From Candidatus Woesearchaeota archaeon (lineage in GTDB: Archaea; Nanobdellota; Nanobdellia; Pacearchaeales; GW2011-AR1), in NCBI GenBank assembly GCA_964575515.1, contig CAZNQS010000006.1, forward strand, positions 3,752-27,751: a stretch of DNA of 24,000 bases, read 5' to 3'. Position 1 is the stretch's first letter; each line of letters begins with the position of its first letter. Positions 4,534 to 10,324 of this stretch are shown piece by piece. Made by a program: the position numbers and the translations under genes. The notes below the pieces were generated by a model. That model was not told the origin of the DNA and searched no databases. It worked only from the letters and a program-made list of their open reading frames with translations.

Positions 4534-5970
4534 TCACTCAAGCATCTCCCTCAATATCTCGCCTGCAATCTTGAAATCAGCCCTCCTGCTTGTCTTTTTC
4601 ATAATCTCTCCCATTAAATAATTAAATGCTCTCTCTCCCCCAGCCCTATAATCCTCGACAGCTTTTTTATTTTTATTTATGACATCCTTGACAACCTTTT
4701 CTAATTCGCCCCTATCTGAAATTCTCTCCTCTTTTTTCCCAAGTTCTCTAATAGAAAAACTCTTTGGATAAAATTGATTTAAAATCTGCTTTCCCTTTAA
4801 AACGCTTATCTTACCACTTTTTACACTATTCAACAATTCAACAAAATGCTCAACTTTCAAATCAACTCTGCTCAAACTAGTTTTATTATAATTCAAAAAT
4901 CTCAATAATTCAACTGTAATCCATGGCAACGCAAACTTGGCGTCAATTCCTCTCTCAACAACTTTTTCAAAAAATTCAGCTATGTCAATATGCTTTGTCA
5001 AAACCTCCGCATCACTCTTTCCTATCTTATATTTTCTGATAATCTTCTCTAACTTATTTTCAGGTGATTCAGGCAAACTCTCCTTCAATTTTTCAATAAT
5101 TAAAGAATCTAAAACAATATCCTGCAAATCAGGATCTGTGATAAACCTATAATCCTCCTGCTCTTCTTTTCCCCTCATCCTGAAACTCTTTCCCTTCTCT
5201 GCATCAAATCTCCTTGTTTCCCGCTCACTACCCTCTCTAATCTGCCTCTCTAACTCATAATCTATTGCCCTCATTATACTATCAACAGAATTCAAATTTT
5301 TAATCTCAACTCTTTCTGTTTTTCCAGGTAAACCTGAAATTTTCTCTTGTCTCCTTGAAATTTCAGGGCTGGAGAATTTCACATTCTCCAGATTCACGTT
5401 AACATCAACCTTTATTCCAGCATTGCTATCAATACTCCTCAAATAAGCAAGATTATGCAACAAACTCTTAATCCAGTCTGTAACCTCTTCAGACGTCTCA
5501 AAATCAGGCTCTGTAATAATCTCAACTAATGGTAATCCAGACCTATTGTAATCAACACATCCTGTATCTGGCTCCCATGCAGCAGGGTCCTCCTCTAAGT
5601 GTATGCTTCTTATTCTAATCCCATAAAATTTCCCATCCTCTCCAACAGGAACAGCATAAGCCCCAGAAATAGTATTTTGATAGCCCTTGGGCAAATCAGG
5701 CCAATCGTAATGCTTTCTCTGCCATCTCATCTCTTTATTAATCTTGCATCCGAACATTAAACCAATCCTAATTGCTTGCTTAACAGCCTCCTCGTTAGGC
5801 AGCATCGGCTTTGCCCCTGGCTGTCCTGTGCACGTTGGGCAAATATTAATATTCGGCTTTAATCCTCTTTCTCTTGAAGCAATGCATCTACAAAACAATT
5901 TCTCTTTTGTAATAATATAAACATGAATCTCCAATCCTATCATGCCCCTAAGCTCTTGAATTTGTTTCAT
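4534..5970 (-). CDS. gatB: Aspartyl/glutamyl-tRNA(Asn/Gln) amidotransferase subunit B
   Basis: N-terminal IGLEIHVYI ... CPTCTGQPGAKPMLPNEEAV cradle-domain motifs and C-terminal YqeY-like tail (AFNYLMGEIMKKTSRRAD). The 478-aa length fits GatB rather than GatE. Confidence 0.9.
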   Translation of the reverse strand: MKQIQELRGMIGLEIHVYIITKEKLFCRCIASRERGLKPNINICPTCTGQPGAKPMLPNEEAVKQAIRIGLMFGCKINKEMRWQRKHYDWPDLPKGYQNTISGAYAVPVGEDGKFYGIRIRSIHLEEDPAAWEPDTGCVDYNRSGLPLVEIITEPDFETSEEVTDWIKSLLHNLAYLRSIDSNAGIKVDVNVNLENVKFSSPEISRRQEKISGLPGKTERVEIKNLNSVDSIMRAIDYELERQIREGSERETRRFDAEKGKSFRMRGKEEQEDYRFITDPDLQDIVLDSLIIEKLKESLPESPENKLEKIIRKYKIGKSDAEVLTKHIDIAEFFEKVVERGIDAKFALPWITVELLRFLNYNKTSLSRVDLKVEHFVELLNSVKSGKISVLKGKQILNQFYPKSFSIRELGKKEERISDRGELEKVVKDVINKNKKAVEDYRAGGERAFNYLMGEIMKKTSRRADFKIAGEILREMLE

Positions 5971-6032
5971 TATATTCCAAAAGAAACAGCTTATAAAAAT
6001 ATTTCCTATATAAATTAAAAATCTTCAATTTC

Positions 6033-6329
6033 CTATCGAGAGACTAAACCGTCTAAATAACTTTCATTTTCCTTAAGTATTCTAAAATCATTTGCCGAAA
6101 AATGATGAATATGTCTTTCTTTTGTCGCAAGCCCCCCTTTAAATTTACGATAGCCCATCCTACACTCTCTGCACTCTTTCAAATGCCGATGAGTTTTCAA
6201 AAGAGTTTCTTTAGTTTCAGTTTCCATCTCACAATACTCACATTTAGAAAGCTTAATTAAATAATCCATCATATTTATAGCCCTATTATGATCACAAGCC
6301 TCAAAACTTAACCATTCGTCCTGTTTCAT
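6033..6329 (-). CDS. Small C-x36-H-x3-C-x2-C protein, paralog 1 (ZAS/zf-HC2-like ligand pattern)
   Basis: 98 aa, ATG start. C12, H49, C53 and C56 plus the C-terminal FRILKENESYLDGLV tail are shared with ORFs 8644..8940 and 8999..9271. An A/T-rich TTTTTTATAT box lies about 25 nt upstream of the ATG. Confidence 0.6.
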   Translation of the reverse strand: MKQDEWLSFEACDHNRAINMMDYLIKLSKCEYCEMETETKETLLKTHRHLKECRECRMGYRKFKGGLATKERHIHHFSANDFRILKENESYLDGLVSR

Positions 6330-6363
6330 AATAAATTAAAACTAATGAGATATAAAAAAGTTG

Positions 6364-7023
6364 CTAAATTTTCATTTTTGCCTTGTCCCTAACTTGTTTC
6401 TTGAATAACTTCCAGATATTATCGGATATATTTTTAGGAACTACGATAAGTTTGCGATTGATGAGTTTCTCAAGTTTTTCTCCTAAACCCATAATGGCAG
6501 ACTCATTGCCAAATTTGATCTGTTCTTTTGATTCTTCTAGAATAACATTCCAGTCAATTTTACTTCTATTGATAATTGCAACTATATCTTCTAAATCCTT
6601 TTCTCTAGAAGTAACACTTTTCATGATAAGAATATCGTTCGGGTCCGCAACTCTTATGATAAGATTACCAAATTCATGTGTTTGTTTCGCTCGTTCTTTC
6701 ATTGCGTTAGAAAAAGTAGAAGTAATTACTTTGTTCATATACATATCAAAACGGAAATTATCAAATTCGAGCATTAAAGGAGTATTATTCTTCAAACCTT
6801 GCACTAAAATTACATCAGATTCCTTAGCACCTAACTTTCTTAGTGCATCCATAAACTCCTCTCTATCACCTTTTTTGTCAAAAACAAAATCGATGTCTAA
6901 AGTTGAATTTTTGATGCCTCTTAACATCATGGCAGTTCCGCCTATAGCATAAACCTGTATCCTCTTAGGAAGTATCTTTCCTATTGCTATCAATATTGCT
7001 TCTTGTTGTTGTATGTCAATCAT
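6364..7023 (-). CDS. Pol-beta-fold nucleotidyltransferase, AbiEii/DUF6036-like
   Basis: IGGTAMMLRGIKNSTLDIDFVF fits the hG[GS]-x9-13-D-x-D NTase motif in the GGTA...DIDF form seen in AbiEii-type proteins. The later ADPNDILIMKSVTSREKDLEDI resembles the R-x-KD-x-x-D helix of that group. ATGA overlap with the upstream wHTH gene. Confidence 0.6.
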   Translation of the reverse strand: MIDIQQQEAILIAIGKILPKRIQVYAIGGTAMMLRGIKNSTLDIDFVFDKKGDREEFMDALRKLGAKESDVILVQGLKNNTPLMLEFDNFRFDMYMNKVITSTFSNAMKERAKQTHEFGNLIIRVADPNDILIMKSVTSREKDLEDIVAIINRSKIDWNVILEESKEQIKFGNESAIMGLGEKLEKLINRKLIVVPKNISDNIWKLFKKQVRDKAKMKI

Positions 7024-7670
7024 CTGGTATATTCCTCCAAATCAGCACGGTTTAATGGGATATAAATTTTCCATCTTTTTTCAATATCTTTAAAATCATC
7101 TGAAGAAAGACCTCTTATGATATAAATAAAAGGATTAGCCTTTCTTTTTTGTGCCTGATGTAAAAATCTCTTTGGCATTCTCCTTACTTTTCTTACAACT
7201 CTTCTTGCAATCTCATAAAGAGCCACAATCTCCTTTATCAAATCTTCCTTTTTAGCCAACTTATACAATAAACTCCAATCAGATATCTTCCTAAATAAAG
7301 CTAAGGAAGCAATAATGCAACGAACATCCCTTTGTTTTATGGCATAAATAAGCGCCTCCTCATAAGAAAGAACTCTGCCATGTACATAATAGGGGTTAGA
7401 AGGCGCAACTTGAATCCCATGACTTGGGGAAGCCTCATTTATTTTTTCAGTATAGCTTACTCCTTTTTGTTTATTTTTCAGAGATATATTATATAACCTT
7501 TTCTTTCCCGCTCCATAATTGGTCTTTACAAAACCCAGTTTTCTTAATCTGTGAATAACATAAACTGCCTTAGACATATTTATCTTTAGTCTATCTGCGA
7601 AAGTTTCTAAAGTATAGACACCTTGTAGCGACTCCCCCAATCTCTCGTACTTGTTACTTCCCTTTATCAT
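7020..7670 (-). CDS. wHTH regulator, AbiEi-like (putative antitoxin/transcription factor)
   Basis: N-terminal winged-helix-like segment (TLETFADRLKINMSKAVYVIHRLRKLGFVKT) followed by a roughly 130-aa second domain. 4-nt overlap with the downstream NTase, the AbiEi-AbiEii gene order. Confidence 0.5.
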   Translation of the reverse strand: MIKGSNKYERLGESLQGVYTLETFADRLKINMSKAVYVIHRLRKLGFVKTNYGAGKKRLYNISLKNKQKGVSYTEKINEASPSHGIQVAPSNPYYVHGRVLSYEEALIYAIKQRDVRCIIASLALFRKISDWSLLYKLAKKEDLIKEIVALYEIARRVVRKVRRMPKRFLHQAQKRKANPFIYIIRGLSSDDFKDIEKRWKIYIPLNRADLEEYTR

Positions 7671-7749
7671 TATTAAATATATAATAAGTGATATATAAAC
7701 TTTACCATTATTATTTTTATTATTAAATGTATAATTATTAATATATAAA
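7669..7749 (-). promoter_or_regulatory. Two 31-nt imperfect direct repeats (27/31 identical) exactly 50 bp apart at the start of the AbiEi-like gene
   Basis: 7669-7699 ATTATTAAATATATAATAAGTGATATATAAA versus 7719-7749 ATTATTAAATGTATAATTATTAATATATAAA. The first copy overlaps the ATG (7668-7670). Confidence 0.35.
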
Positions 7750-7826
7750 TAAAATTAAAAATACATCAATTAGAAATAATTTTTAAATTAAAATTAAAGA
7801 ACTATAAAAAACTTGTTAAATTCCAA

Positions 7827-8579
7827 TTATGGCCAATTAGCAGTACAAACAGTTAGACCACCACTAATGGTATTAGATAGACCATTACCAACCAAATCAA
7901 CCTTCGAATCCTCAAACAAAATAGTATTAAAAGTTGAACCAATTTCTGCATAGCCTCTGTTTCTCCATCCGCTATCAGTCCCTAATCTAGCATACCTTAC
8001 TCTAACCTCTATATTTCCACTATTAACCCTTGCTTCATGGATCCCCTCATCCACAGTTCCTGCATGTGTTCTACAACTTATAATTGCTCCGTCAGGAACC
8101 CATTTATACCCAACCCAAGCCGCCCCCTTAAGCCCTGTACTTGTTCTTATATCCCCATTTACATCCAATCTTGCCTGAGGAGAAGATGTTCCAACCCCGA
8201 CATTTCCGCCACTTTGCGTAATTCCAGGAACCCATCCACTAACGCCATCGTATGCTGTCCAAGAACCATCAGCATTAGGATTTAGAGCAAATGCTCTTTC
8301 ACCATCTGAACGCATAATCGCTAGTCCTGTAGCTGTATTAGGACGAATTGTAAACTTAGAACCAACAATACCTCCCTCTGTAGGGTCATTTGTTCCAATA
8401 CCCACGCTTCCCTCGACACCTAATCTAGGCAACATCTGATTCCAATCAATCTGATCAATACCATGAAAAACAGATGTATCAACAGCAGCTGCTTTAACAT
8501 AAAAAACAATTCCAAATAATAAAACAACCCCAAGCAAAACAAAAAAATGCCTCTTTTCTATATTAATCTTAATTTCCAT
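7827..8579 (-). CDS. Membrane-anchored/secreted glycine-rich protein with tail-fibre-like GxVGIGT motifs
   Basis: ATG start preceded by a GAGG SD-like element. N-terminal TM/signal anchor (FFVLLGVVLLFGIVFYV). Two copies of the G-[SN]-V-G-[IV]-G-T-x-x-P motif, the second followed by ARLDVNGDIRT. Confidence 0.6.
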   Translation of the reverse strand: MEIKINIEKRHFFVLLGVVLLFGIVFYVKAAAVDTSVFHGIDQIDWNQMLPRLGVEGSVGIGTNDPTEGGIVGSKFTIRPNTATGLAIMRSDGERAFALNPNADGSWTAYDGVSGWVPGITQSGGNVGVGTSSPQARLDVNGDIRTSTGLKGAAWVGYKWVPDGAIISCRTHAGTVDEGIHEARVNSGNIEVRVRYARLGTDSGWRNRGYAEIGSTFNTILFEDSKVDLVGNGLSNTISGGLTVCTANWP

Positions 8580-8643
8580 ATAACCTCTTCTCTACAATTA
8601 TTAAAATAATAATCAAAACTATTTAAACATTACTTTTAACTTT

Positions 8644-8940
8644 TTAAACCAAACTATCTAAATATTTCTCATTCATTTTTAATAAAGCAAATTGTCTCCC
8701 AGAAAATCCGCCTCCTACACTAGCAAATCTCCCTTTAACATAATTCAAACCATTATAACAGACCTTGCACTCCTTAAAATGCCTATGCCATTTAAGAGTC
8801 ACTCTCTTATCCTCATCAGGCAAAAATTCATATTCTCGCTCTGATAAACTAATCAAATAGAGCACGACATATCCTGCTCTATCAAGTGAACAAGCTATAT
8901 TAATTCCCTCCTCAGATTTTTCATCAAATTCACTTACCAT
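8644..8940 (-). CDS. Small C-x36-H-x3-C-x2-C protein, paralog 2
   Basis: The ORF-track start at 8946 is GTG, and the first ATG is at 8940 (98 aa). C17, H54, C58 and C61 and the terminal FALLKMNEKYLDSLV tail align with paralogs 1 and 3. Confidence 0.55.
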   Translation of the reverse strand: MVSEFDEKSEEGINIACSLDRAGYVVLYLISLSEREYEFLPDEDKRVTLKWHRHFKECKVCYNGLNYVKGRFASVGGGFSGRQFALLKMNEKYLDSLV

Positions 8941-8998
8941 ATCCACATCAATTACTCTTTATTTAAAAATATTTATGAAAAACAAAACAATATTTTAT

Positions 8999-9271
8999 TT
9001 AAATCAAGCTATCCAAAACTCTCTCGTTCTCTTTTAATAATCTAAAACTCTCGGGAGTATAAAGCTTAGAAAATATTATATTGGATGCAGCGTCTCTCTT
9101 GGCATCAATGTAATAATTCCTACATCTATCGCAATTTTTAAAATGCTCATACATATCATTAATAAACCTCCTCTCCAGTTCCGATAAATCAGTATAAGTA
9201 GCAGTTGATAAAGTGCCTATATAAAAACAAATATCTAAACCTCTATCTTCAGAACATGCCTCGCTTTCCAT
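8999..9271 (-). CDS. Small C-x36-H-x3-C-x2-C protein, paralog 3
   Basis: The likely start is the internal ATG at 9271 (MESEACSEDRG..., 90 aa), preceded by AAGGAGGGAGAAGAAA. The 50 codons further upstream in the track ORF overlap dys in another frame. C6, H43, C47, C50 and the terminal FRLLKENERVLDSLI tail are present. Confidence 0.6.
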   Translation of the reverse strand: MESEACSEDRGLDICFYIGTLSTATYTDLSELERRFINDMYEHFKNCDRCRNYYIDAKRDAASNIIFSKLYTPESFRLLKENERVLDSLI

Positions 9272-10262
9272 TTTCTTCTCCCTCCTTCGCAAAACTCTCT
9301 GCCACAAGTAGCGGAAATAAAATTGTCGCATCCCCAAATACTTTAACAGAATCTCCCCCAGCCACAATCTTTCCCCAAGAAACAGCCTCATCGGGCAAGG
9401 CTCCTGCATCACTTCCATCATATTCTTGAGAAGTATTTATATAAACGGCATACTCGCAACCATTCCGCAACATATTTGTATTCAGAATAGAATGCTTAAT
9501 TATTCCAGTTCCAAGCAAAATCACTCCGCTCTTCTTTAACTTAAAACTACTATCATTCAATTCTTTTATATCTTCAGTAATATCAATCTTAAAATCAGGC
9601 TTTTTAAATTTGAAAAAATAAATATTATCTCCTAATGCTCCATCAGTCAGAGCAGGACAAAAAATTCTTATTTTATTCTTCCACGCCCAATAGCAAACAC
9701 TTCTCTTGTCATTTATTTTCTCTCCTAATTTCCAGATAAAGTCGCAAACACTCAAAATCTTTTTAGTCCTATCCTGCTCATTCCACAATTCTTCTAAAAT
9801 AGGCTGAATAAATTCTTCAAATTCAACATATCTGTTATTCGGCGCATATACATTTCCTATTCTATTAATCCCTTTTTCCCTCAATTCAGCCCCGTCAGCG
9901 TGAAAATCTCCCAAAACAAAATCCCCGAGGCATTTTATAATATCCTCTTCAATCCCTCCAGCTGTTGTAACAATCACGTTAACTTTTTTATGCTCAACTA
10001 AATATCTAAAAATATCTCTTAATCCAGAGCTTACAAGATTAGACGTGTATCCTAAATAAACAAAAGCCTTATCCTTAATCATCTTATTAGCAATGTCAAT
10101 CGCCTTGGCTAAATGCGATGCCTGAAACCCTGTAGAAGAAAAACTGCGGACAATCTCGTCATAATTCACTCCTTTATTGAAATCATATCCCTTAATCGCA
10201 ATTCCCTCTATTTCCTCGCTCTCTCTAAGCAAATTCTTCTTTGCAATTTCTCCATTATCCAT
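9249..10262 (-). CDS. dys: Deoxyhypusine synthase
   Basis: GYTSNLVSSGLRDIFRYLVEHKKVNVIVTTAGGIEEDIIKC and WGKI...GDATILFPLL are DHS hallmark blocks. The first ATG is at 10262, and the track start at 10274 is GTG. Confidence 0.9.
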   Translation of the reverse strand: MDNGEIAKKNLLRESEEIEGIAIKGYDFNKGVNYDEIVRSFSSTGFQASHLAKAIDIANKMIKDKAFVYLGYTSNLVSSGLRDIFRYLVEHKKVNVIVTTAGGIEEDIIKCLGDFVLGDFHADGAELREKGINRIGNVYAPNNRYVEFEEFIQPILEELWNEQDRTKKILSVCDFIWKLGEKINDKRSVCYWAWKNKIRIFCPALTDGALGDNIYFFKFKKPDFKIDITEDIKELNDSSFKLKKSGVILLGTGIIKHSILNTNMLRNGCEYAVYINTSQEYDGSDAGALPDEAVSWGKIVAGGDSVKVFGDATILFPLLVAESFAKEGEENGKRGMF

Positions 10263-10324
10263 ATCGTGAAGCACTTTTCATGATATATAAATCTTTATTA
10301 AGATTGATAAAAAATAAAAAGGAG

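What the first reader, a model, noticed from the sequence alone, without database searches (positions are those of the whole stretch)
6033..7749. Compact AbiE-like wHTH + nucleotidyltransferase pair with a Cys/His small protein as a possible third component
ORF 7020-7670 (wHTH plus a second domain) overlaps ORF 6364-7023 by ATGA. The latter has the GGTA-x11-DIDF Pol-beta NTase motif and a later REKDLEDI helix. This is the gene order and coupling of type IV AbiEi/AbiEii toxin-antitoxin/abortive-infection modules, but the NTase (219 aa) is shorter than the classical AbiEii proteins I recall. Paralog P1 of the C-x36-H-x3-C-x2-C family follows 34 nt downstream on the same strand, with its own TATA-like box. 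If it is functionally linked, this would be a three-part variant: regulator, NTase effector, zinc-finger modulator.
Basis: partly seen in the sequence, partly recalled or inferred. Interest (0 to 1): 0.6.

Follow-up and report, generated by a model that had tools for sequence, protein, structure and literature searches.

The report
Two-gene archaeal NTase toxin–antitoxin-like cassette
This is a self-contained, horizontally spreading two-gene cassette of tiny DPANN archaea, a DNA-binding regulator plus a MenT/AbiEii-like nucleotidyltransferase with its own conserved twin-repeat promoter, and the small Cys/His gene next to it is only a neighbour, not a third component.

Summary
The sequence observations are all correct: ORF coordinates, ATGA overlap, GGTA-x11-DIDF, REKDLEDI, and P1 34 nt downstream.

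**Supported.** This is a tightly coupled two-gene module.
- The 219-aa NTase is a DUF6036 protein (Pfam 39.5 bits, cut-off 23.6) and falls below the AbiEii cut-off.
- It carries the MenT/AbiEii core residues: GG, T41-x-D43-x-D45, K135 and D143/D146.
- Its best fold match is the M. tuberculosis toxin MenT1.
- The 216-aa partner has a MarR-type winged helix plus a C-terminal helical domain with no detectable relatives. It is not AbiEi by Pfam, PDB sequence or fold.
- In 151 genomes of the order, the partner was found in 10. All 10 also have the NTase, and the two genes abut.
- The pair is patchy, sits in a different context every time, and its similarity pattern contradicts that of GatB. This indicates horizontal transfer.
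- Two ~31-nt direct repeats, 50 bp apart over the promoter, are conserved in 10 of 11 loci and occur nowhere else in the genome. They are a likely operator.

**Refuted.** The three-part variant does not hold.
- The small Cys/His family and the NTase co-occur only in this genome (0 of 13 other NTase genomes).
- A same-genus genome has dys, one small gene, then gatB, with no pair.
- No experiment was possible, so toxicity is inferred.

The parts
7714..7749 (-). Distal copy of the conserved promoter or operator unit (TTTATATATTA-N7-ATACATTTAATAAT), about 79 nt upstream of the partner ATG
   Evidence: Direct repeat found. Conserved in 10 of 11 related loci at the same register. Mean column identity is 0.90 against 0.57 further upstream. 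The composite unit occurs only at these two sites in the 1-Mb genome.
7664..7699 (-). Proximal copy of the unit. Its TTTATATAT box lies 21-29 nt upstream of the ATG and its last bases are the start codon, which fits a leaderless promoter. A conserved AGAAAG (BRE-like) precedes it in relatives.
   Evidence: The promoter role and the leaderless transcript are inferred from archaeal promoter geometry and were not measured.
7020..7670 (-). Partner protein, 216 aa: N-terminal MarR/TrmB-type winged helix (residues about 5-70) plus a C-terminal helical domain (about 100-216) with no detectable relatives. Putative repressor and antitoxin.
   Evidence: AF2 pLDDT 88. Foldseek matches only the wHTH. A broad profile hits MarR structures at E=7e-4. 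No Pfam family scores above cut-off and none is AbiEi. The family is small: 130 clusters at 50% identity in 1.84 billion proteins.
6364..7023 (-). DUF6036 nucleotidyltransferase, 219 aa, MenT/AbiEii-like. Core residues are G28 G29, T41, D43, D45, D93, K135, R140, K142, D143 and D146. Putative toxin or effector.
   Evidence: Pfam PF19502 39.5 bits. These residues are invariant or nearly invariant in 32 homologues, and GG, DxD, K135, D143 and D146 are invariant across 6 paralogues. AF2 pLDDT 90. Foldseek top hit is MenT1 8an5_B, E=4.7e-7. The paralogue profile aligns to MenT1 with the S/T-x-D, K and DxxD positions in register.
6330..6363 (-). Module boundary: a 34-nt spacer with a T6 run directly after the NTase stop codon and a TATA-like box placed to drive a separate leaderless P1 transcript
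   Evidence: Read from the sequence. Termination and promoter function are inferred.
6033..6329 (-). P1, a small Cys/His protein. It is an adjacent gene judged NOT to be part of the module. It is one of three local paralogues of a dys-linked small gene.

Best explanation
Positions 6364-7749 (minus strand) hold a compact, mobile, self-regulated two-gene cassette of the AbiE/MenAT kind. The downstream gene encodes a DUF6036 Pol-beta-fold nucleotidyltransferase with the catalytic core of the MenT/AbiEii toxins. By analogy, it would add nucleotides to the 3' ends of tRNAs or other RNAs and so arrest translation. The upstream, translationally coupled gene encodes a MarR-type winged-helix protein with a lineage-specific C-terminal domain. 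I propose two roles for it. First, it represses the operon by binding the two conserved direct-repeat units that cover the TATA box and the start site. Second, it neutralises the NTase through its C-terminal domain, either by sequestration or by inducing autophosphorylation of the invariant T41. T41 occupies the position of the MenT1 T39, MenT3 S78 and AbiEii T65 phosphoacceptors. Shown here: the family assignments, the motifs, the fold similarity, strict co-occurrence and adjacency, patchy and horizontally transferred distribution, and conservation of the repeats. Inferred: toxicity, the substrate, DNA binding to the repeats, and the neutralisation mechanism. The small Cys/His gene P1 is an unrelated neighbour.
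For: - **NTase family:** DUF6036 scores above the cut-off and AbiEii just below it. PADLOC AbiEii models hit weakly.
- **NTase fold:** the best Foldseek hits are MenT1 (8an5/8an4) and JHP933. The paralogue profile hits MenT1 at E=1.5e-5 and JHP933 at 4e-5, with catalytic positions in register.
- **Core residues:** the conserved MenT1 residues T39, D41, K137 and D152 (PMC11375011) have invariant counterparts T41, D43, K135 and D146. The AbiEii phosphoacceptor T65 is described as structurally equivalent (bioRxiv 10.64898/2026.01.19.700257).
- **Coupling:** the 4-nt overlap is kept in every locus examined.
- **Co-occurrence:** in 151 genomes of the order the partner is present in 10, all NTase-positive, with abutting coordinates.
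- **Patchiness:** 2 of the 4 other genomes in the same genus have the pair, and about 9 of 105 in the family.
- **Horizontal transfer:** GatB identity is 76/73% within the genus and 59/54% outside it. NTase identity is 63/35% within the genus and 75/60% outside it.
- **Empty site:** a same-genus genome lacks the pair at this position.
- **TA or defence context:** some copies sit next to other such modules, namely PemK/MazE, MNT/HEPN and an AbiE-like pair by eye in G101.
- **Operator:** two units are conserved at -79 and -29 in 10 of 11 loci, are unique in the genome, and show a matching C-to-G change in both units of the most divergent locus.
Against: - There are no functional data.
- The NTase misses the AbiEii gathering score. 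Foldseek TM-scores to MenT1 are only about 0.5. Antibiotic NTases, ANT(2'')-Ia and LnuA, score nearly as well.
- The partner has no detectable similarity to AbiEi or any MenA antitoxin, so its antitoxin role rests on gene organisation alone.
- Sequence conservation within the family is high (57-89% in the listed hits). This is more than in many TA families and could reflect a constrained cellular role.
- The repeats include a TATA box, so part of their conservation is promoter function and not necessarily repressor binding.
Confidence: 0.6

Rival explanations
1. Three-component system as proposed by the first reader: wHTH regulator, NTase effector and the Cys/His small protein P1 as a zinc-finger modulator.
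For: P1 lies 34 nt downstream on the same strand.
Against: - The small family has only three copies in the genome, all local.
- In 151 genomes it is found in 5 and the NTase in 14, with only this genome in common. Same-genus G135 and G141 have the pair without it. G084 and G107 have it without the pair.
- In G107 and G084 its homologue follows dys directly.
- The gene downstream of the NTase differs in all 16 other neighbourhoods and is never Cys/His-rich.
- P1 has its own TATA-like box, and a T-run follows the NTase stop codon.
Confidence: 0.03
2. A non-toxic modifying enzyme with a dedicated MarR-type repressor. The NTase would nucleotidylate a small molecule, such as an aminoglycoside- or lincosamide-like antibiotic or a metabolite. 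The wHTH protein would simply regulate its expression.
For: - Foldseek hits to ANT(2'')-Ia (E=2e-4, TM 0.46-0.55) and LnuA are close behind MenT1.
- MarR-type regulators commonly control resistance genes (general knowledge).
- A patchy, transferred distribution also fits a resistance cassette.
- High sequence conservation.
Against: - Profile-sequence searches hit MenT1 and JHP933 at about 1e-5, but LnuA only at 0.12 and ANT(2'') not at all.
- The K135 and D143-x-x-D146 helix and the S/T at -2 of the catalytic Asp match MenT/AbiEii core positions.
- Strict 4-nt translational coupling, and a conserved 110-residue C-terminal domain in the partner that co-varies with the NTase, suggest a protein complex and not just regulation.
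- The same genome holds five more HTH-NTase pairs, two of them true AbiEii.
Confidence: 0.15
3. A domesticated, lineage-important cellular function, such as RNA or tRNA 3'-end maintenance linked to tRNA-charging genes. This would parallel the MNT-HEPN fusion that is unusually conserved in DPANN.
For: - High conservation.
- In this genome three HTH-NTase pairs sit beside GatB, a GatE-like gene and a class II aaRS. In G135 the pair sits beside GluRS, and in G063 it is 2 kb from PheS.
- PMC6393860 notes a conserved MNT-HEPN protein in housekeeping context in DPANN.
Against: - The pair was found in only 10-14 of 151 genomes, including only 5 of 68 high-quality ones.
- The aaRS adjacency was not seen in 5 hold-out genomes or in 8 other loci.
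- In same-genus genomes the pair and gatB are on different contigs.
- The similarity pattern indicates transfer, not vertical descent.
Confidence: 0.07

Closest known systems
MenAT toxin-antitoxin systems of Mycobacterium tuberculosis (MenT1/MenA1, MenT3/MenA3). MenT enzymes are DUF1814-superfamily NTases that extend tRNA 3'-CCA ends.
   Same: - MenT1 is the best structural match (8an5/8an4) and is of similar small size (about 190-220 aa).
- The core residues are the same: GG, [ST]-x-D-x-D, K, D-x-x-D.
- The upstream gene overlaps the toxin gene.
- Antitoxins in this group are already known to be mutually unrelated (PMC11375011).
   Different: - The Pfam family differs: DUF6036, not DUF1814/AbiEii.
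- TM-score is only about 0.5 and identity about 15%.
- The partner is a 216-aa wHTH protein unrelated to MenA1 or MenA3.
- The host is an archaeon.
- tRNA modification and autophosphorylation are untested.
AbiE (AbiEi/AbiEii) abortive-infection and TA system of Lactococcus and Streptococcus agalactiae. It was classed as type IV and is now proposed to be type VII.
   Same: - Gene order: regulator first, then NTase, with overlap.
- The partner has two domains, an N-terminal winged helix and a C-terminal domain.
- Paired repeats lie in its own promoter, as in AbiEi autoregulation (cited).
- The NTase core motifs are shared.
   Different: - The NTase is below the AbiEii gathering score.
- The partner matches no AbiEi Pfam model, PDB sequence or structure.
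- The repeats are direct with 50-bp spacing and each includes a TATA box. AbiEi binds inverted repeats.
- The same genome also has two true AbiEii genes, but with the HTH gene downstream.
Pfam DUF6036 (PF19502), 'nucleotidyltransferase of unknown function'
   Same: The NTase is a member: 39.5 bits against a cut-off of 23.6. All listed homologues but one carry the same precomputed domain.
   Different: The family has no described function or partner. No paper in the searchable library mentions it. The coupling to a specific wHTH partner and operator is described here.
JHP933 of Helicobacter pylori (4o8s/4ok0), a DUF1814-family NTase from the plasticity zone
   Same: Second-best structural and profile match. 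It is also an accessory, horizontally acquired gene.
   Different: It is larger, has no reported wHTH partner, and is bacterial.

Membership tests
DUF6036 (PF19502) | Score above Pfam's gathering threshold | tested here: met
   39.5 bits against 23.6, residues 22-163. The precomputed PF19502 domain is listed on all but one of the listed homologues.
AbiEii / DUF1814 (PF08843) | Score above Pfam's gathering threshold | tested here: not met
   19.4 bits against 22.5. The PADLOC AbiEii models match only residues 28-70, best E=2e-5. Two other NTases in the same genome do pass, at 65 and 53 bits.
AbiEii / MenT NTase superfamily | Conserved core residues: GG, phosphoacceptor S/T two residues before the first catalytic Asp, DxD, a later Lys, and a C-terminal Dxx D helix (MenT1 T39, D41, K137, D152) | tested here: met
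   G28, G29, T41, D43, D45, K135, D143 and D146 are invariant or nearly invariant in 32 homologues, and the GG, DxD, K135, D143 and D146 positions are invariant across 6 paralogues. They are in register with MenT1 in the HMMER alignment. Residue roles are from PMC11375011.
AbiEii / MenT NTase superfamily | Fold similarity to solved members | tested here: met
   Foldseek: MenT1 8an5_B E=4.7e-7 (TM 0.49/0.57), JHP933 E=3.5e-5. The match is moderate, and ANT(2'')-Ia and LnuA follow closely.
AbiEii / MenT NTase superfamily | Growth inhibition and nucleotide transfer to tRNA 3' ends | not testable with these tools
   Requires expression and biochemical assays.
AbiEi antitoxin (PF13338, PF09407, PF11459 and relatives) | Sequence match to an AbiEi model | tested here: not met
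   No AbiEi family appears in the window protein's own table or among the top 25 families per scan, for 32 close and 33 broader family members at E<=0.1. hhalign against the AbiEi_4-like partner of a true AbiEii in the same genome gives probability about 0.1-1%.
AbiEi antitoxin | Fold similarity to solved AbiEi-type structures | tested here: not met
   Foldseek against PDB: only the wHTH domain matches (MarR, ZitR, eS25, Z-alpha) at E of about 0.04 or weaker. No AbiEi entry is among the 50 hits listed. The C-terminal domain has no hit.
AbiEi antitoxin | N-terminal wHTH plus C-terminal domain, encoded upstream of and overlapping the NTase gene | tested here: met
   AF2 model and gene organisation. 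This is a resemblance in architecture, not evidence of homology.
AbiEi antitoxin | Negative autoregulation by binding paired repeats in its own promoter | tested here: inconclusive
   Paired repeats are present, conserved and unique. They are direct, not inverted, and binding was not testable.
Toxin-antitoxin or abortive-infection module (generic) | Strictly co-inherited gene pair with patchy, horizontally transferred distribution | tested here: met
   10 of 10 co-occurrence with adjacency. The pair is in about 7-9% of genomes sampled. Similarity is incongruent with GatB. Contexts vary.
Three-component variant (pair plus Cys/His protein) | Conserved synteny or co-occurrence of the small gene with the pair | tested here: not met
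   0 of 13 other NTase-positive genomes have the small family. All 4 other genomes with the small family lack the NTase. 0 of 16 neighbourhoods show it.

The most novel reading that the evidence does not exclude
The wHTH partner is a previously unrecognised antitoxin family. Its lineage-specific C-terminal domain, which ends in an acidic SSDDFKD loop, would trigger autophosphorylation of the invariant T41 of a DUF6036 NTase. This would extend the type VII 'antitoxin-induced autophosphorylation' mechanism beyond DUF1814 enzymes and into DPANN archaea. The same protein would read a tandem operator in which each unit embeds a TATA box, so that repressor and TBP compete at two sites. With six HTH-NTase pairs in a 1-Mb genome, such NTase modules may be a major stress or antiviral strategy of these episymbiotic archaea, which otherwise have few recognised defence systems.
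Probability: 0.3. Interest if true: 0.55.

Novelty: new variant of a known kind. Interest (0 to 1): 0.38.

Why it matters
DUF6036 is an uncharacterised Pfam family, and I found no paper that mentions it. This work links it to the MenT/AbiEii toxins by core residues and fold. It also identifies an obligate partner protein from a family with no Pfam model and a conserved operator.

Together these give a concrete, testable functional hypothesis for a cassette that circulates among Pacearchaeota-like DPANN archaea. These organisms cannot be cultured alone, and recent archaeal surveys find few recognised defence systems in many archaeal genomes (abstract listed).

The result also removes a false lead. 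The Cys/His small protein belongs with dys, not with this module. The overall importance is moderate, because the kind of system (an NTase toxin with a DNA-binding antitoxin) is well established.

Tried and rejected
- **Third component:** rejected on co-occurrence, synteny and the same-genus empty site.
- **AbiEi homology of the partner:** sought by single-sequence Pfam, NCBIfam and PADLOC scans, by Pfam scans of 32 and 33 family members, by PDB profile searches, by Foldseek against PDB and BFVD, and by hhalign against the partners of the other NTase pairs in the genome. Only a MarR-type wHTH was found.
- **Housekeeping NTase (CCA-adding enzyme or sugar NTase):** CCA enzymes appear only at E>=3e-3 with TM of about 0.3. 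No such Pfam family matched.
- **Association with tRNA-charging genes:** I noticed this post hoc and tested it on 5 unseen genomes plus other loci. It did not replicate.
- **Antisense ORF 6383-6952 (+):** its similarity in relatives comes from NTase conservation on the opposite strand, and it is broken into 74-89-aa pieces there. It is not a gene.
- **Viral origin:** PHROGs gave only one weak unknown-function hit for the NTase and none for the partner.
- **Literature:** a search for DUF6036 returned nothing.
Full report
**1. The observation**

The window is AT-rich (about 30-38% GC). It comes from a 1.01-Mb, 48-contig genome. The closest protein relatives are labelled Pacearchaeota or Nanoarchaeota, which are DPANN archaea.

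On the minus strand I confirm three ORFs: 7020-7670 (216 aa), 6364-7023 (219 aa) and 6033-6329 (98 aa). The sequence shows these features:
- The first two ORFs overlap by ATGA.
- The NTase has GGTA-x11-DIDF (G28 to F46) and REKDLEDI (R140 to I147).
- A 34-nt spacer precedes P1.
- P1 has the C-x36-H-x3-C-x2-C pattern.

The flanking genes are GatB (4534-5970) and deoxyhypusine synthase (9249-10274).

**2. What the two larger proteins are**

*The NTase.*
- It passes Pfam's DUF6036 threshold (39.5 against 23.6 bits) and misses AbiEii (19.4 against 22.5). PADLOC AbiEii models touch only residues 28-70.
- A 32-sequence alignment gave a confident AF2 model (pLDDT 90).
- Its best Foldseek matches are the M. 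tuberculosis toxin MenT1 (8an5_B, E=4.7e-7, TM 0.49/0.57) and H. pylori JHP933. ANT(2'')-Ia, TM1012 and LnuA follow. CCA-adding enzymes are far behind.
- G28, G29, D43, D45, K135, D143 and D146 are invariant across the six NTase paralogues of this genome. T41, D93, R140 and K142 are invariant within the family.
- A profile of the paralogues aligns to MenT1 (E=1.5e-5). In that alignment the S/T-x-D, Lys and D-x-x-D positions are in register with MenT1 T39, D41, K137 and D152.
- PMC11375011 identifies those residues as the conserved core, with T39 as the autophosphorylation site. MenT3 S78 and AbiEii T65 are the equivalent residues.

*The partner.*
- It has no Pfam family above threshold. Only sub-threshold wHTH matches appear.
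- Its AF2 model (pLDDT 88) has a winged helix at residues 5-70 and a helical domain at residues 100-216.
- Foldseek matches only the winged helix (MarR/ZitR, eS25, Z-alpha) in PDB and in BFVD. No AbiEi structure appears in the listed hits.
- A broader profile reaches MarR structures at E=7e-4 and nothing else.
- hhalign against the partners of the other NTase pairs in the genome finds nothing. This includes the AbiEi_4-like partner of a true AbiEii.
- An exhaustive profile search of 1.84 billion representative proteins finds only 130 clusters, many of them fragments. Full-length members are about 195-225 aa. The family is narrow and lineage-specific.

**3. The pair is a unit and it moves**

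- Both proteins have over 200 homologues in the same identity range.
- In 16 further neighbourhoods the two genes are always adjacent. Seven of these are metagenomic contigs and nine are reference genomes. The 4-nt overlap is kept in all but two of them, while everything around the pair differs.
- In 151 genomes sampled from the order, the NTase is found in 14 at E<=1e-20 and the partner in 10. All ten partner-positive genomes are NTase-positive, and the coordinates abut.
- Two of the four other same-genus genomes have the pair and two do not.
- GatB identity to the window follows taxonomy: 76% and 73% within the genus, 59% and 54% in other genera. The NTase does the opposite: 63% and 35% within the genus, 75% and 60% outside it.
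- Some copies lie next to other TA modules, such as PemK/MazE and MNT/HEPN. In G101 the neighbour looks like an AbiE-type pair by eye.

These are the population features of an accessory, horizontally transferred module.

**4. A conserved operator-like element**

- The repeats at 7664-7699 and 7714-7749 are 83% identical and 50 bp apart.
- In an alignment of the upstream DNA of six loci, both units are conserved, with consensus TTTATATATTA-N7-ATACATTTAATAAT. Mean column identity is 0.90 and 0.87, against 0.57 further upstream. The proteins themselves differ by 25-50%.
- Across all loci with enough upstream sequence, 10 of 11 show both units at -79 and -29. The exception is the divergent G135 subfamily.
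- The composite unit occurs only at these two places in the genome.
- In the most divergent locus, both units carry the same C-to-G change. This suggests one reader protein for both sites.
- The proximal unit's TATA-like box lies 21-29 nt before the ATG, and the motif ends in the start codon. This implies a leaderless transcript.
- Only the proximal unit is preceded by a conserved AGAAAG. Its role is inferred by analogy with archaeal BRE elements.

A repressor bound to the ATACATTTAATAAT half-units would occlude the promoter. That is functionally like AbiEi autoregulation, but here the repeats are direct and not inverted. Binding itself was not tested.

**5. The small Cys/His gene is a neighbour**

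- The family has three copies in the genome, all in this window: 6033-6329, 8644-8946 and 8999-9421.
- In the 151-genome sample it occurs in five genomes. The only overlap with the 14 NTase-positive genomes is this genome. Within the genus the two features are mutually exclusive apart from this genome.
- In same-genus genome G107 the order is UppS, dys, one small gene that overlaps the end of dys, a 75-aa Pol-beta NTase remnant, then gatB. In G084 a DEAD-box helicase gene occupies that gap.

So the small gene is natively linked to dys. The interval between it and gatB is a variable hotspot. In this genome that hotspot holds two extra paralogues, a 250-aa exported protein and the NTase pair.

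P1 also has its own TATA-like box, and a T6 run follows the NTase stop codon. No gene downstream of the NTase elsewhere is Cys/His-rich.

**6. Mechanism and confidence**

Most likely (0.6), this is an AbiE/MenAT-like toxin-antitoxin or abortive-infection cassette.
- The NTase would be the growth-arresting effector, probably acting on RNA 3' ends.
- The wHTH protein would be both repressor and neutraliser.
- T41 is a candidate for antitoxin-induced autophosphorylation.

Toxicity, substrate, DNA binding and the neutralisation mode are all inferences.

The main rival (0.15) is a small-molecule-modifying NTase under a MarR-type repressor. A domesticated role linked to tRNA-charging genes (0.07) was suggested by neighbours in this genome, but it did not replicate in hold-out genomes. 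The three-part model is essentially excluded (0.03).

**7. Novelty**

The kind of system is known. The new elements are these:
- DUF6036 is assigned to this mechanism class.
- An obligate partner family without any model is identified.
- The operator is a pair of direct repeats that each embed a TATA box.
- The setting is DPANN archaea.

No paper in the searchable library mentions DUF6036. I rate it a new variant of a known kind, of moderate interest.

**8. Limits**

- Absence calls in draft genomes mean 'not found in those searched'.

Noticed in passing
G000 contigs C1, C9, C10, C16, C26 (loci L007-L011) plus window 6364-7670: This 1.0-Mb genome carries six HTH-plus-NTase gene pairs of at least four subtypes. 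Two are true AbiEii genes (65 and 53 bits), each followed by an AbiEi_4-like gene and what looks by eye like a GNAT-type gene (not checked by profile). Two are near-duplicate wHTH-then-NTase pairs (DUF6036/NTP_transf_2). One is an HTH-then-NTP_transf_5 pair. The sixth is the pair studied here. This is a very high density for such a small genome.
   Followed up: partly
window 5970-9000, compared with L012:6500-7200 and L013:4700-6450: The interval between the dys-linked small Cys/His gene and gatB is a variable hotspot within the genus. It is nearly empty in G107, apart from a 75-aa Pol-beta NTase remnant. It holds a DEAD-box helicase gene in G084. Here it holds two extra small paralogues, a 250-aa exported protein and the NTase pair.
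   Followed up: partly
L012:6512-6790, L013:6442-6900, window 8999-9421: A homologue of the small Cys/His protein overlaps or abuts the 3' end of the deoxyhypusine synthase gene in three genomes of the genus. This suggests a conserved dys-small-protein linkage that would be worth its own study.
   Followed up: partly
L009:904-3468, L008:2009-4790, L015:1161-4393, L017:2011-6950, window 4534-7670: Several HTH-NTase pairs lie next to tRNA-charging genes: GatB, a GatE-like gene, a class II aaRS, GluRS and PheS. I noticed this post hoc. It was not seen in five hold-out genomes or in eight other loci, so it is probably chance or a local effect.
   Followed up: yes
L024:3556-4754 (G101): In one genome the NTase is followed, with a 4-nt overlap, by a 178-aa ORF. 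By eye it looks like a 2H phosphoesterase or LigT (an H-V-T-I motif). The pair is also flanked by what looks by eye like a canonical AbiE-type pair. This is a single case, and neither assignment was verified by profile search.
   Followed up: no
window 7827-8579: The 250-aa protein upstream of the pair gives weak PHROG tail-fibre hits (E=1.6e-4 to 6e-3, residues about 120-176). It has no homologue next to the pair in the ten related loci compared by BLAST.
   Followed up: partly
window 6383-6952 (+): A 189-aa antisense ORF lies inside the NTase gene. It appears conserved in relatives only as broken 74-89-aa pieces. It is a shadow of the coding strand, not a gene.
   Followed up: yes
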